NCBI RefSeq assembly: GCF_009914755.1
Contig: NC_060938.1
Source of the DNA: the human T2T-CHM13v2.0 reference genome, Homo sapiens
DNA length: 64,000 nt
Reading direction: 5' to 3' (one strand)
Part shown: piece after piece, positions 20,553-61,800 of the stretch
Layout of the letters: each line of letters opens with the position of its first letter
How positions within the stretch are numbered: position 1 is the stretch's first letter
Translations under genes and position numbers: made by a program
The notes under the pieces: model-generated
What the model saw: the letters and a program-made list of their open reading frames with translations, nothing else
Databases searched by the model: none
What the model was told of the DNA's origin: nothing

Positions 20553-21927
20553 AAAATTCTTATCACGTATTAGTATTCATGATCACATCTATCTGCATTT
20601 AAAATGCCTTGTAACAAGGAAGCTAAGCACTCATTTTATTGAAACATTCTAGATATGTCTGTTTTCTAATGCAAAGACATTCACAAGAACATCTAAGCAT
20701 TAACCTCAGTGTTCAAAGTGTCAAAAAGATTTTGAAATCATGAATATTTTTATGTAAAATACTGATTTAATGTTTCTCAGAAAAATTCAAGTCTAAGGGT
20801 GGCATCAGCAGAATAGCAGTTCTCAGGATTCACCCACCACCCCACTTCCCTACGCCTCCACTGAGAGATCAACTAGCAACTATGCACAGATAAGAACACC
20901 TTGGTGAAAATCCTGAAACATAGAAATAAGCCTAAGTCACCTGCATGTTCCATAGAAGTGAGTAAAAATCCACATTGAAAGGGTAGGAGAAATGGTGTAT
21001 CTCCCTTCCCCAAGTCACCACAGTGCCATACAGAGAGGATTCCCCAGGGCCTACAGTGGGAAAAGACAACCTGGGTGGTGGACATCCAGCTTCCCTAGGA
21101 TTCAGAGATGCTTCCCTGAAAGCCCACTCTCTTCTCACCTCACAGTAACGGTAGGGAAAAACTGCACAGCTAGACTACGTGGGGTCAGGTAGAAACAAAG
21201 CAAGAGTTGCAAAGCCCACAGAGACCAGTGCACAAATTTTGGCGAAAGTTCAGTGTACCTCCCAGCAGTGGTGCTAGATCAGAGATACCAGATTCCCCAC
21301 CCCACCCCCCACCCCCACAAAGCTGGACTGGTCACTCCCAGAAGAGGTGGGAAATGCTACCTGCTTTGAATCCGTAGATAGCTAGCTGCCAGGCCCAGCC
21401 TCAGACTTGGCCAGAGTATCCCCCCTCACCCAGGAAGGGAGAAGACCCCCTGACAGTGAATTTCAACAAAAAAAGTAAGGACTAGTTCTGCCATACCCAG
21501 GAGTTTAATCAGCATTCCTTGCTGCCACAGAACACAACCCCAGATCCCTCCCAGGGAGGGAGACAAATCTCAACAGTACCTTTCTACTGAGTATAGCAGT
21601 TGGTCCATTCATCCTGATATACTTAACCTCAGGAACCCTCCTGCAACCCTGTCCAACTGCTGAACTGAAATAGTAGTACCTTCTGGCCACAGAATACACC
21701 CTGTGGCCCAGCTTGATCAGAGGCAATTGAAATGCCTATCCAGTAGCTCAGCCTGATTGCAGAGGTCAGCCAGTGGTCTTGCCAGATAGCAGAGCCCAGC
21801 TAGCTGCCCCACCCAAATTCAGAGCAAAAGCAGCAGCCCAGCCATCTAGAGAACCTAAAAGCAAGCTCTGCCTTTCCAGGGTCATTACCAGCTGACTCAC
21901 CTAGAAGCATGGGCTAGATTAAATAGT

Positions 21928-22128
21928 CATTCATTCAGGAAGCACTCATGAAGAGCCTACCAGGTGCCGGCCCTGGCCTGGGGCTGGGCTTAGAGCCGGG
22001 GCAGGATGGCCTGGCATCTGCTCCGTGGAGCTCACAGCCCAGCCTAGGCTGGCAACTCCAGTCTGCCCCAGTTTCCAGTTCTGTCCATTCCCCTTGCAGC
22101 TCAGCATGGATGAAGCTTTGAAATCCAG
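21928..22128 (+). other. 5'-transduced foreign sequence carried by the SVA (contains an antisense L2-like fragment)
   Basis: Lies between the left TSD (AAATAGT 21921-21927) and the SVA hexamer. About 60% GC by manual count; not L1M, not MAST2. Confidence 0.8.
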
Positions 22129-24193
22129 CTCTCCCTCTCCCTCTCCCTCTCCCTCTCCCTCTCCCTCTCCCTCTCCCTCTCCCGTCTCCCCACGGTCTCC
22201 CTCTCCCTCTGTTTCCACGGTCTCCCTCTTATGCCGAGCCGAAGCTGGACTGTACTGCTGCCATCTCGGCTCACTGCAACCTCCCTGCCTGATTCTCCTG
22301 CCTCAGCCTGCCGAGTGCCTGCGATTGCAGGGGCGCGCTGCCACGCCTGACTGGTTTTCGTATTTTTTTTGGTGGAGACGGGGTTTCGTTGTGTTGGCCT
22401 GGCCGGTCTCCAGCTCCTAACCGCGAGTGATCCACCAGCCTCGGCCTCCCGAGGTGCCGGGATTGCAGACGGAGTCTCGTTCACTCAGTGCTCAATGGTG
22501 CCCCGGCTGGAGTGCAGTGGCGTGATCTCAGCTCGCTACAACCTCCACCTCCCAGCCGCCTGCCTTGGCCTCCCAAAGTGCCGAGATTGCATCCTCTGCC
22601 CGGCCGCCACCCCGTCTGGGAAGTGAGGAGCGTCTCTGCCTGGCCGCCCATCGTCTGGGATGTGAGGAGCCCCTCTGCCTGGCTGCCCAGTCTGGGAAGT
22701 GAGGAGTGTCTCCGTCCGGCCACCATCCCATCTAGGAAGTGAGGAGCGCCTCTTTCCAGCCGCCATCCCATCTAGGAAGTGAAGAGCGTCTCTGCCCGGC
22801 CGCCCATCATCTGAGATGTGGGGAGCGCCTCTGCCCCGCAGCCCCGTCTGGGATGTGAGGAGCATCTCTGCCCGGCCGCGACCCCGTCTGGGAGGTGAGG
22901 AGCGTCTCTGCCCGGCCACCCCGTCTGAGAAGTGAGGAGACCCTCTGCCTGGCAACCGCCCCGTCTGAGAAGTGAGGAGCCCCTCCGCCCAGCAGCTGCC
23001 CCGTCTGAGAAGTGAGGAGCCTCTCCGCCCGGCGGCCACCCCGTCTGGGAAGTGAGGAGCGTCTCCGCCCGGCAGCCACCCCATCCGGGAGGGAGGTGGG
23101 GGGTCAGCCCCCCGCCCGGCCAGCCACCCCGTCCGGGAGGGAGGTGGGGGGGTCAGCCCCCCGCCTGGCCAGCCGCCCCATCCGGGAGGTGAGGGGCGCC
23201 TCTGCCCAGCGGCCCCTACTGGGAAGTGAGGAGCCCCTCTGCCCGGCCAGCTGCCCCGTCCGGGAGGGAGGTGGGGGGTCAGCCCCCCGCCCGGCCAGCC
23301 GCCCCGTCCGGGAGGGAGGTGGGGGGGGTCAGCCCCCCGCCCGGCCAGCCGCCCCATCCGGGAGGTGAGGGGCGCCTCTGCCCAGCCGCCCCTACTGGGA
23401 AGTGAGGAGCCCCTCTGCCCAGCCAGCCGCCCCGTCCGGGAGGGAGGTGGGGGGTCAGCCCCCACCCGGCCAGCCGCCCCGTCCGGGAGGGAGGTGGGGG
23501 GTCAGCCCCCCGCCCGGCCAGCCGCCCCGTCCGGGAGGGAGGTGGGGGGGTCAGCCCCCCGCCCGGCCAGCCGCCCCGTCTCCGGGAGGTGAGGGGCGCC
23601 TCTGCCCGGCCGCCCCTACTGGGAAGTGAGGAGCCCCTCTGCCCAGCCACCACCCCGTCTGGGAGGTGTGCCCAACAGCTCATTGAGAACGGGCCAGGAT
23701 GACAATCGCGGCTTTGTGGAATAGAAAGGGGGGAAAGGTGGGGAAAAGATTGAGAAATCGGATGGTTGCCGTGTCTGTGTAGAAAGAAGTAGACATGGGA
23801 GACTTTTCATTTTGTTCTATACTAAGAAAAATTCTTCTGCCTTGGGATCCTGTTGATCTGTGACCTTACCCCCAACCCTGTGCTCTCTGAAACATGTGCT
23901 GTGTCCACTCAGGGTTAAATGGATTAAGGGCGGTGCAAGATGTGCTTTGTTAAACAGATGCTTGAAGGCAGCATGCTCGTTAAGAGTTGTCACCACTCCC
24001 TAATCTCAAGTACCCAGGGACACAAACACTGCGGAAGGCCTTCCGCAGGGTCCTCTGCCTAGGAAAACCAGAGACCTTTGTTCACTTGTTTATCTGCTGA
24101 CCTTCCCTCCACTATTGTCCTATGACCCTGCCAAATCCCCCTGTGTGAGAAACACCCAAGAATGATCAATAAAAAATAAAAATAAACAAAAAA
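22129..24193 (+). mobile_element. Full-length SVA (SVA_F-like, possibly D/F): (CCCTCT)n, Alu-like, VNTR, SINE-R, poly-A
   Basis: All canonical domains present. F-like residues: ggccggtctcc, gtgtgcccaac, gggccaggatgac, ggctttgtgg. Right TSD AAATAGT at 24194-24200. Confidence 0.97.
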
Positions 24194-25614
24194 AAATAGT
24201 GAAGGTCTATTCCTGGTAAGGGACACCTATAAAAGCCAGAAAAGGTAGCTGTCTCTGCAAATGCACAGACACCAATGCAAGAATGCAAGAATTACAAAGA
24301 CTCAGGAAATCATGATACCTCCAACAGAAACTAACAAATCTTCAACAATAGACCCTAAAGAAAAGGAGATCTATGACACGTCAGAAAAAGAATTCAGAAT
24401 GATCCTCTTTAAAAAAAGAAAAAGAAGAAGAAGAAGAATTTCAAGAATATACAAATTAAAAATTAAATGAAACTTGGAAAATAATACACAAACAAAACAA
24501 GGAGTTCGACAAAGAAATAAACATTTTTTTAAACCAAAGAGAAATCCTAGAGATGAAGAATACAATAACTGAAATTAAAAATTCAATAGAAAGCTTCAAC
24601 ATCCAGCTCAATCAAGCTAAAGAAAACATCAGTGAGCTTCCAAACAGAACATTTGAAATTACCCAATCAGAGGAGCAAAAAGAGAAAGAAATAAAGAAAG
24701 CCGGCAGGAATTGTGGGACACCATTTAGAGACCTTATTTATGTGTAATAGTAATATAAGAAGAAGAAAGAGAAAAAGAGCCAGGAAATATATTAAAAGGA
24801 ATAATGGATGAAAACTTCCCTAATCTGAGGAAGGAAGCCAGCATCCAGGTACAAGAAGTTAAAAGGTCTCTGATCAAATTCAACTCAAAGAGGAGTTCAC
24901 CAAAACACATAATAATTAAACTACCAAAAATCAAAGACAAAGAAAAAATTCTGAGAGCCTCAAGAGATAAGAAATACATCACGTACAAAGGAGTCACAAT
25001 ATGACTATCTGTGGACTTCTCAGCACAAAACCTGCAGGCCAAGAAAGAGTGGGATGATAGAGTCAATGTGCTGAATGTGCTGAAGGAAAATAATCACAAA
25101 CCAAGAATACTTCATCCAGAAAAGCTGCTTTTCATAAATGAGGCATAAATAAAAACTTTCCCAGATAAACAAAAGTTAAGGAGGTTCATCCTCCACTAGG
25201 CATGCATTACAAGAATTGATATTAAAAAAAAGTTCTTTAAACTTTAAACAAAAAACTGCTAATTAATAACATAAAACTTACAAAAGCAAAAAACTCAATG
25301 ATATAAATAATACAGAGCAATATTCAGAATGCTCTAGGACTGTAATGGTGGTATGTCAAGTAATTTTATCCTTAGTAGGAGGGTTAAAGAATGAAACTAT
25401 TCATAACAACTACAGCTAAAATGAATTGGAAAGGGATACATACTACAAAATGATAATATACATTTACATAAAAATATAAATTCAGACATCAAAAATATAA
25501 AATAGGAAAAAGTCAAAGCATGGAGTTGTATGCAATCAAAGTTTCATTGTTATCAGCTTCAAATAGACTGTTATGAGTGTAAGATGTTCTACATAAGCCT
25601 CATGGTAACCAAAA

Positions 25615-61389: not shown

Positions 61390-61800
61390 TGCAGAGCTTT
61401 TAACTAGTGACTCAGTGAAGAGTGATGTCATATGTTATCCCAGGACTGCCGGTGTGGTTCTCTCTGCTCGCTCTAACCATTCCCCCTGCTTCTGTGGCAG
61501 GCAGTAATCCCCGCTTTCCATCCTCTAGTCAGCTTCCTCCCAGCCAGCCACAAGCGAACAGGCTCGCAAGCAGCGGATGAAACAGGAAGTCTGACAGCTT
61601 GAGTCTGCAGTGGGACCCCTAGTGTTTTCCCACTCCATGTCCTGGCATCGTTCCCCAGAAGTACAAACACACACACACAGAGCTCCCATTGTTGCAGCCT
61701 TCCTCAGCCCACTGATCCTAATATGGAATTCAGCAGGAAACCCATGATTTCCTGACACTCGGCAAGCTGGAGGAAGCAAAGGGAAAAAAACTCCATTAAA
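61390..61800 (+). promoter_or_regulatory. RHOJ: RHOJ proximal promoter region (non-CpG-island; ETS, FOX:ETS, AP-1 and SOX motifs)
   Basis: AAACAGGAAGT at 61580-61590, further GGAA cores, TGACTCA at about 61408 and CATTGT at about 61688, directly upstream of exon 1. The TSS cannot be determined from sequence. Confidence 0.6.

What the first reader, a model, noticed from the sequence alone, without database searches (positions are those of the whole stretch)
21921..24200. SVA_F-like element carrying a ~200-bp non-MAST2 5' transduction
Seen: the 7-bp TSD AAATAGT (L1-EN-type site GATT|AAAT) brackets both the SVA and 201 bp upstream of the CCCTCT hexamer. Removing everything between the TSD copies restores a continuous L1M 5'UTR (gggctagattaaatagt|gaaggtctattcc). 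The extra piece is about 60% GC, contains an antisense L2-like relic and ends ..CTTTGAAATCCAG, which could be the source element's own insertion site. Known: 5'-transducing SVA groups exist (e.g. MAST2/SVA_F1), but this sequence is not MAST2 and it abuts an intact hexamer, which fits read-in from an upstream start rather than splicing. Inference: it tags a source SVA locus driven by an external promoter and may define a sibling group.
Basis: partly seen in the sequence, partly recalled or inferred. Interest (0 to 1): 0.8.

Follow-up and report, generated by a model that had tools for sequence, protein, structure and literature searches.

The report
SVA copy carrying chr6 leader
This is an ordinary human-specific SVA retrotransposon copy that carried 201 bases of chromosome 6 DNA along at its front end; it is one of nine such copies in this genome and is already listed in a 2018 catalogue.

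Summary
Window 21928-24193 is one L1-mediated insertion: a 201-bp non-SVA leader, a full SVA and an A-tail, bracketed by AAATAGT. It sits in an old L1 whose paralogues run straight across the site.

The leader is single-copy DNA from chr6:36,759,546-36,759,746 (minus strand, T2T). Nine SVAs in this assembly share the identical junction ..GAAATCCAG|CTCTCC. They have different 5' ends, and eight of the nine have their own TSD. This is a true 5'-transduction group, made by read-in rather than splicing.

- The element is not SVA_F-like. It keeps the 11 bp whose loss is the SVA_F hallmark, and Damert 2018 lists it as hs_SVA_D5b.
- The chr6 locus has no SVA at the junction in CHM13, so the source copy is missing.
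- It is not new. Damert 2018 (Additional file 2) lists hg19 chr14:63633039-63633539 as absent in chimpanzee and gorilla, with the remark "5'TD from chr6", together with four siblings and the chr17 (TOM1L2) to chr3 to chr4 (IQCF2) chain that I re-derived.

Three further members (chr17, chr6:74.84 Mb, chr2) carry no such remark there. Interest is low.

The parts
21921..21927 (.). 5' copy of the target-site duplication AAATAGT, preceded by GATT (TT|AAAT endonuclease-type site)
   Evidence: A single copy is present in uninterrupted L1 paralogues.
21928..22128 (+). 201-bp 5'-transduced leader, copied from chr6:36,759,546-36,759,746 (minus strand, T2T); 59.7% GC
   Evidence: It is 98.5% identical to the chr6 locus and 97.5-99% identical to the sibling copies.
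22129..22229 (+). SVA (CCCTCT)n hexamer region, with the CCCGTCTCCCCACGGTCTCC and GTTTCCACGG interruptions shared by the group
22230..22593 (+). SVA Alu-like region. It retains CGTATTTTTTT (22359-22369), so it lacks the SVA_F hallmark deletion. It carries the group-specific GGCCTGGCCGG variant.
22594..23666 (+). SVA VNTR (units of about 37-50 bp)
23667..24173 (+). SINE-R region ending in AATAAA (24168-24173). It has a private 4-bp duplication not found elsewhere in the genome.
24174..24193 (+). interrupted A-rich tail
24194..24200 (.). 3' copy of the target-site duplication AAATAGT
24201..25148 (+). host element: an old L1 in the same orientation, interrupted by the insertion about 560 bp upstream of its ORF1 RBD-like domain. 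The left part continues upstream of 21927.

Best explanation
Window 21928-24193 is a single L1-mediated (target-primed reverse transcription) insertion of an SVA_D-lineage RNA (hs_SVA_D5b in Damert 2018). Its transcription started not inside the SVA but in chromosome-6 DNA lying directly upstream of a source copy. The resulting cDNA carries a 201-bp chr6 leader, then hexamer, Alu-like region, VNTR, SINE-R and poly(A), and it is flanked by a 7-bp duplication.

Shown: the leader lies inside the TSD. It is single-copy chr6 sequence. Nine SVAs share the identical leader/hexamer junction, with different 5' ends and, for eight of them, their own TSD. The group also shares private SVA-internal variants. 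Descent was serial: an unseen chr6 source, then chr17, then chr3:51.89 Mb, then chr4.

Inferred: the founder SVA sat right after ..GAAATCCAG at chr6:36.76 Mb and is absent from CHM13, either lost or never fixed. The clustered 5' ends (-12 to 0) reflect start sites in or just upstream of the leader. The window copy is a terminal leaf with no detectable offspring in this genome.
For: Anatomy and empty-site test.

Genome search with the 201 bp: 9 places were found.
- Self.
- 6 full-length sibling SVA copies at 98-99% identity.
- The chr6:36.76 Mb locus at 99% identity.
- 1 partial copy on chrX.

Flanks: 8 of the 9 places are followed by the hexamer at the same base. Only chr6:36,759,546-746 continues as non-SVA DNA.

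Junction 26-mer: 9 exact hits and 0 in the reversed control. This adds a chr4 copy that keeps only 17 bp of leader.

5' ends relative to the window copy: -38, -12/-9, -9, -8, -2, 0, +65 and +184. Untemplated G is present at three of them.

TSDs were identified for 8 of 9 copies.

A group-specific Alu-like 32-mer has 6 exact genome hits, all in the group.

Serial descent:
- The chr3:51.89 copy carries the chr17 copy's TSD, 118 bp of chr17 flank, and a 110-bp exon from 59 kb upstream. That exon ends CTCG|GTAAGG and is joined at a ..TTTGCAG acceptor.
- The chr4 copy carries DNA downstream of the chr3 copy, joined at GT..AG.

Print: PMC6139936 Additional file 2 lists hg19 chr14:63633039-63633539 as hs_SVA_D5b, absent in panTro4 and gorGor5, "5'TD from chr6".
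Against: - No sense-oriented SVA lies at the chr6 junction in this assembly, so the read-in step at the founder locus is inferred, not seen.
- The TSD of the window copy is only 7 bp.
- One sibling (chr3:46.51 Mb) has no identifiable TSD.
- A three-site SINE-R haplotype (GCC versus TGT) conflicts with the chr3 to chr4 parentage shown by the 3' transduction. This needs gene conversion or a chimeric template.
- Ape and other human haplotypes could not be examined here. Absence in apes rests on the paper's table.
Confidence: 0.95

Rival explanations
1. The founder junction was made by reverse-transcriptase template switching. Reverse transcription reached the 5' end of a canonical SVA RNA and jumped onto an unrelated chr6 transcript. 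This made a chimeric insertion elsewhere, for example the chr6:74.84 Mb copy with the longest leader of 239 bp. That insertion then acted as master. No SVA ever sat at chr6:36.76 Mb. The window copy would still be an ordinary offspring.
For: The chr6 progenitor locus has no SVA at the junction. No sibling has a leader longer than the 239 bp of the chr6:74.84 copy. Template switching is named as one route to SVA transductions in PMC12593883 (sections read).
Against: The leader ends 9 bp after CTTT|GAAA, a plausible L1-endonuclease site. That is what a source element's own 5' TSD would look like, and TSDs beginning GAAA occur in 4 of the 55 catalogued source elements. The chr6:74.84 copy shares two private Alu-like variants only with the chr2 copy, so it is not the parent of the rest as it stands. 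PMC12593883 (passages) notes that source SVAs are often absent because they were lost or are rare.
Confidence: 0.15
2. The leader was acquired by splicing of an upstream exon into the SVA (exon trapping), as in MAST2/SVA_F1.
For: Exon trapping does occur in this same lineage, one step later. The chr3:51.89 copy carries a spliced TOM1L2 first exon (named).
Against: At the chr6 locus the piece is followed by AGAGG, not GT. The piece is colinear with genomic DNA for up to 239 bp, with 5' ends scattered through it. The hexamer is intact from its first unit.
Confidence: 0.02
3. The 201 bp was already at chr14 (or arrived separately) and the SVA merely landed next to it; or the copies are segmental duplications.
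For: None found.
Against: L1 paralogues are continuous across the site with one AAATAGT. Nine loci on eight chromosomes share the junction to the base, but they have unrelated flanks, and eight of them have their own TSD and A-tail.
Confidence: 0.01

Closest known systems
hs_SVA_D5b elements marked "5'TD from chr6" (Damert 2018, Mob DNA 9:30, PMC6139936, Additional file 2, sheet 'homo')
   Same: It is this element. hg19 chr14:63633039-63633539 (SINE-R) and chr14:63,631,596-63,631,958 (Alu-like) are listed as absent in panTro4 and gorGor5, "5'TD from chr6". The siblings on chrX, chr12, chr3:46.5 and chr3:51.9 carry the same remark. The table also names the TOM1L2 5'TD, the chr3 to chr4 parentage and the IQCF2 3'TD.
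   Different: The table gives no chr6 coordinates, leader lengths, TSDs or source status. Three copies that I find with the same junction (chr17:17.86, chr6:74.84 and chr2:198.18 Mb, T2T) are not among the 5 rows carrying a 'TD from' remark. The chr17 copy is filed as hs_SVA_DR without comment. I did not look up the rows of the other two.
SVA_F1 (MAST2 5'-transduction group)
   Same: A group of SVAs sharing foreign 5' sequence propagated from a master copy. Such groups can add further 5' and 3' transductions serially.
   Different: In SVA_F1 a spliced MAST2 exon replaces the hexamer and most of the Alu-like region, and the body is SVA_F (PMC6139936 and PMC3287187, passages). Here the leader is unspliced chr6 DNA in front of an intact hexamer, the body is SVA_D-type, and the group is small: 9 copies against the 84 cited there.
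Polymorphic SVA 5'-transduction groups and source catalogue (PMC12593883, Tables S4, S6, S8)
   Same: Same mechanism and same logic of tracing sources by transduced tags. That paper also reports concatenated transductions and sources missing from references.
   Different: This group is not among them. The junction string has 0 hits among the table's non-reference SVA sequences (543 insertions in that study); cells were cut at 400 characters. No chr6p21 or chr17p11 source appears among the 24 rows listed in Table S6 or the 55 sources. This suggests the group is no longer active.

Membership tests
SVA retrotransposon (canonical, full length) | (CCCTCT)n hexamer, Alu-like region, VNTR, SINE-R, AATAAA plus A-tail, flanking TSD | tested here: met
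L1-mediated (TPRT) insertion | TSD, 3' A-tail, endonuclease-type target TT|AAAA-like, exact restoration of the empty site | tested here: met
   GATT|AAATAGT and a 7-bp TSD. Paralogue continuity is exact in 4 of 11 and compatible in 6 of 11.
SVA 5'-transduction group | Non-SVA sequence between the 5' TSD and the SVA 5' end, shared by two or more insertions, traceable to one unique locus | tested here: met
   Nine copies have an identical junction. The unique progenitor is at chr6:36,759,546-36,759,784 (minus strand).
SVA 5'-transduction group | A source SVA present immediately downstream of the transduced sequence at the progenitor locus | tested here: not met
   CHM13 has unique DNA after ..GAAATCCAG. 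Other haplotypes cannot be tested with these tools.
SVA_F | [quoted passage not shown] | tested here: not met
   CGTATTTTTTT is present at 22359-22369. Of the first 20 of 147 supplement matches shown that retain this stretch, 15 are labelled E, 5 D and none F.
SVA_F1 (MAST2) | MAST2 exon 1 sequence replacing the hexamer and part of the Alu-like region | tested here: not met
   The leader maps to chr6 with no chr1 match. The hexamer and Alu-like region are intact.
hs_SVA_D5b (Damert 2018) | Listed by coordinate in the author's table; diagnostic SINE-R substitutions | tested here: inconclusive
   The listing by coordinate was found. I had no list of the diagnostic positions. The window copy has the GCC state at three linked SINE-R sites, and 'GCC' is a remark used for hs_SVA_D5 rows in that table. 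I did not verify that the two are the same sites.
Human-specific insertion | Absent at the orthologous site in chimpanzee and gorilla | not testable with these tools
   No ape genome is held. The table in PMC6139936 says absent in panTro4 and gorGor5. Divergence from the group majority is 10 of 1072 for this copy and 94 of 9246 for the group, which is compatible with a few million years.

The most novel reading that the evidence does not exclude
The chr6 leader may not be a passive tag. It may be the founding feature of the whole human-specific hs_SVA_D5b lineage, acting as a portable start-site module. Five of the eight distinct 5' ends fall within 13 bases (-12 to 0) over TCATTC initiator-like motifs, and several carry cap-type untemplated G. 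The leader is also present in copies with the ancestral SINE-R haplotype (chr17, chr6:74.84, chr2), which the published table does not flag. The transduction would then predate the D5b substitutions, and its source allele at chr6:36.76 Mb has since been lost.
Probability: 0.15. Interest if true: 0.3.

Novelty: already known. Interest (0 to 1): 0.15.

Why it matters
It matters little beyond bookkeeping. It shows that a tool-free reading can correctly recognise a 5' transduction from TSD logic alone.

The re-analysis on a complete genome adds details to a published one-line remark:
- the exact chr6 origin;
- leader lengths and TSDs;
- three members not flagged in print;
- an empty source site in CHM13;
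- base-level junctions of a four-step chain (chr6, then chr17/TOM1L2 exon trap, then chr3, then chr4 with IQCF2 3' transduction).

The chain is a compact teaching example of how SVAs shuffle exons. The SVA also overlaps a RefSeq 'enhancer' feature (23524-24185) about 38 kb upstream of RHOJ, as many SVAs do.

Tried and rejected
- **Damert 2009 (PMC2775593 and DOI), Hancks 2009 (PMC2775590) and a 2010 SVA review (PMC2945828).** None is held. I could not see whether the group is already in the 2009 catalogues. By recall they scanned the whole reference, so it probably is.
- **Paper searches.** Searches for SVA with C6orf89/PI16/MTCH1/6p21.2, SVA with TOM1L2 and T2T-CHM13 SVA transductions gave nothing specific. 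PMC10681720, PMC5640379, PMC3287187, PMC9132208 and PMC12350158 (passages only) do not mention this group.
- **Naming the gene at the chr6 progenitor locus.** A Pfam scan of the 57 longest of 212 stop-to-stop ORFs of at least 60 aa in 29 kb found nothing above cut-off. A CAP-domain scan meant to place PI16 found only chr12 genes. The gene context and the 'external promoter' therefore remain unidentified.
- **Antisense SVA 1.86 kb upstream of the leader at the chr6 locus, considered as the source.** Rejected. Its orientation is wrong for read-through or splicing, no single inversion gives the leader(+)|SVA(+) junction, and it lacks the group's internal variants.
- **Two non-group SVAs (chr5, chr20) that share one group variant.** They lack the other variants.
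- **TSD of the chr3:46.51 copy.** Not found within 4.2 kb.
- **A tree of the group.** Not built. CpG homoplasy and the GCC/TGT conflict make 1 kb of sequence uninformative.
Full report
**1. Observation**

Reading the window shows AAATAGT at 21921-21927 and again at 24194-24200. The first copy is preceded by GATT, giving TT|AAAT, the usual L1-endonuclease type of target. The SVA hexamer array starts at 22129, and TRF reports arrays at 22129-22229 and a VNTR at 22594-23666. The SINE-R ends in AATAAA at 24168-24173, followed by an interrupted A-tail. Between the 5' TSD and the hexamer lie 201 bases (21928-22128), 59.7% GC, ending ..CTTTGAAATCCAG.

I tested the claim that removing everything between the TSD copies restores a continuous L1 without typing any joined sequence.
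- The 200 bases left of the insertion match at least 40 dispersed copies at 74-88% identity.
- I examined the 11 best paralogues.
  - Four have the left-flank homologue, with one AAATAGT, followed at the next base by the homologue of window 24201 onward.
  - Six are compatible within a few bases.
  - One lacks the right flank.
- Pfam finds L1 ORF1 RBD-like and dsRBD-like domains at 24759-25148 on the + strand.

The host is therefore an old L1 in the same orientation, hit about 560 bp upstream of its ORF1 RNA-binding domain. Only the 'L2-like relic' remark could not be tested.

**2. What the 201 bp is**

A search of the window's own assembly (T2T-CHM13) with the piece returned nine places:
- the window itself;
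- six other full-length copies at 98-99% identity that are followed by an SVA;
- a copy at chr6:36,759,546-36,759,746 (minus strand, 99% identity) that is not followed by an SVA;
- one partial copy on chrX.

Reading the flanks showed that eight of the nine are followed, at exactly the same base, by an SVA hexamer. The chr6:36.76 Mb copy continues as unrelated unique DNA (..GAAATCCAG|AGAGGAAGATC..). This is the progenitor locus.

A search with the 26-base junction found nine exact hits and none with the reversed control. It added a chr4 copy that keeps only the last 17 bases of the leader.

The leaders begin at different points relative to the window copy:

| Copy (T2T, Mb) | 5' end |
|---|---|
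| chr6:74.84 | -38 |
| chr3:46.51 | -12/-9 |
| chr12 | -9 |
| chr17 | -8 |
| chr2 | -2 |
| chr14 (window) | 0 |
| chrX | +65 |
| chr4 | +184 |

Three of these ends carry untemplated G.

Eight of the nine copies have their own TSD and A-tail. The chr3:46.51 copy has none that I could find.

The group also shares SVA-internal variants. A 32-mer spanning GGCCTGGCCGG has six exact hits in the genome, all in the group. Two outside SVAs that share another variant lack the rest.

This is a monophyletic 5'-transduction group.

**3. Mechanism**

The leader is colinear with chr6 genomic DNA for up to 239 bases. It has no GT donor after its last base at the progenitor locus, and it sits in front of an intact hexamer. 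Splicing of the MAST2 type is therefore excluded.

The best reading is transcription that started upstream of an SVA inserted right after ..GAAATCCAG. The leader's last nine bases follow CTTT|GAAA, a plausible endonuclease site. TSDs beginning GAAA occur in 4 of 55 catalogued sources.

In CHM13 the site is empty. The founder is therefore either lost or rare. PMC12593883 reports this as common (passages). Alternatively, the founder junction arose by template switching. I give the template-switch rival about 0.15. It concerns only the founder, not the window copy.

An SVA does lie 1.86 kb from the leader at the chr6 locus. It is in the opposite orientation and lacks the group's variants, so I treat it as a coincidence in an SVA-rich region.

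**4. The lineage moved on**

- **chr17 copy.**
  - Its TSD is AAAAGAATTTCCA.
  - It lies on the minus strand between an exon at chr17:17,918,940-17,919,049 and VHS-domain exons at 17.854 and 17.840 Mb.
- **chr3:51.89 copy.**
  - Its TSD is AGAAGTTTAAGAAGACCTA.
  - In order, it carries an untemplated G, that upstream exon, 118 bases of chr17 intron including the chr17 TSD, the chr6 leader, and the SVA.
  - The exon translates MEFLLGNPFSTPVGQCL and ends CTCG|GTAAGG at its own locus. The intron piece begins behind a ..TTTGCAG acceptor.
- **chr4 copy.**
  - Its TSD is AAAGAGAATTT.
  - It carries, behind its A-tail, 35 bases of the chr3 copy's 3' flank joined at GT..AG to a 157-base block.
  - A further 1.75-kb block follows, ending 16 bases after an AATAAA.
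  - The second junction has no GT-AG and skips 2.3 kb. I did not resolve why.

**5. Subfamily and age**

The Alu-like region keeps CGTATTTTTTT at 22359-22369. PMC6139936 (main-text passages) calls the loss of these 11 bp the SVA_F hallmark, so 'SVA_F-like' is wrong. In the first 20 of 147 supplement matches of PMC12593883 that retain this stretch, 15 are labelled E, 5 D and none F. The D rows match the window best.

Over 1,072 aligned non-VNTR positions the window copy differs from the group majority at 10 positions, 4 of them CpG transitions. The group mean is 94 of 9,246 positions (1.02%; 0.74% without CpG transitions). That fits a few million years.

A private 4-bp duplication in the window's SINE-R occurs nowhere else in the genome, so this copy left no detectable offspring.

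**6. What is in print**

The 2009 catalogues of 5'-transducing SVA groups are not held. However, the supplement of Damert 2018 (PMC6139936, Additional file 2, sheet 'homo'; rows seen) lists hs_SVA_D5b chr14:63633039-63633539 (hg19) as absent in panTro4, absent in gorGor5, "5'TD from chr6".

The same remark stands for chrX:51023330, chr12:100687323 and chr3:46536675. For chr3:51893171 the remark is [quoted passage not shown]. The chr4 row reads "3'TD IQCF2 (testis restricted)".

The finding, its sibling group and the chain that I re-derived are therefore already known. The gene names TOM1L2 and IQCF2 come from that table.

Only five rows carry a 'TD from' remark, and none of them is the chr17, chr6:74.84 or chr2:198.18 Mb copy. 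The chr17 copy is filed as hs_SVA_DR without comment. I did not look up the rows of the other two copies.

The group does not appear among polymorphic non-reference SVAs. There are 0 junction hits among that table's sequences (543 insertions in that study; cells cut at 400 characters). There is no matching transduction group or source. The group appears to be extinct as a source lineage.

**7. Verdict**

The subfamily is wrong and the source is missing in this assembly. The finding is ordinary and already catalogued, so interest is low.

Noticed in passing
L012 (chr6:36,755,000-36,764,000, T2T); in the leader's orientation, positions about 925-2390 of the reverse complement: A short SVA lies in the opposite orientation only about 1.86 kb upstream of the progenitor copy of the leader. 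It lacks the group's internal variants, and no simple inversion links it to the group. This proximity is unexpected by chance for a family of a few thousand copies.
   Followed up: partly
L015 (chr3:46,507,000-46,516,000): This sibling SVA interrupts an Alu after ..ACAAAAAATTG. The DNA after its A-tail is not the rest of the Alu, and no TSD or second A-run occurs within 4.2 kb. Possible causes are a target-site deletion, a long 3' transduction or a rearrangement.
   Followed up: partly
SINE-R start of the nine copies (window 23690-23712 and counterparts): Three linked sites split the group. The GCC state is in chr14, chr12, chr3:46.5, chrX and chr4. The TGT state is in chr17, chr6:74.84, chr3:51.9 and chr2. 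The chr4 copy has GCC although its parent locus chr3:51.9 has TGT. This suggests gene conversion or a chimeric template.
   Followed up: partly
L039 (chr4:112,894,300-112,902,300) versus chr3:51,888,200-51,917,200: In the chr4 copy's 3' transduction the first junction is canonical GT..AG. The second junction (..GTGGATGG|CACCTGCAG..) has no GT-AG and skips 2.3 kb of the chr3 locus. Possible causes are a later insertion at chr3, a deletion at chr4, or a non-canonical junction.
   Followed up: no
5' ends of the chr2, chrX, chr4 and chr3:51.89 copies (L014, L017, L039, L013): One or two untemplated G residues sit between the TSD and the first templated base. This is the signature usually ascribed to reverse transcription of the RNA cap. 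These copies are therefore probably full-length cDNAs of transcripts with different start sites, not truncations.
   Followed up: partly
window 23524-24185: The RefSeq 'enhancer' feature in the hub's table lies wholly inside the SVA (end of the VNTR plus SINE-R), about 38 kb upstream of the RHOJ start at 61795.
   Followed up: no
window 24759-25148: The host L1 still gives clear ORF1 RBD-like (E 1.9e-20) and dsRBD-like (E 9e-9) Pfam matches in two adjoining open stretches. This fits the hub's lncRNA description 'LINE-1 ORF1 protein-like'.
   Followed up: partly
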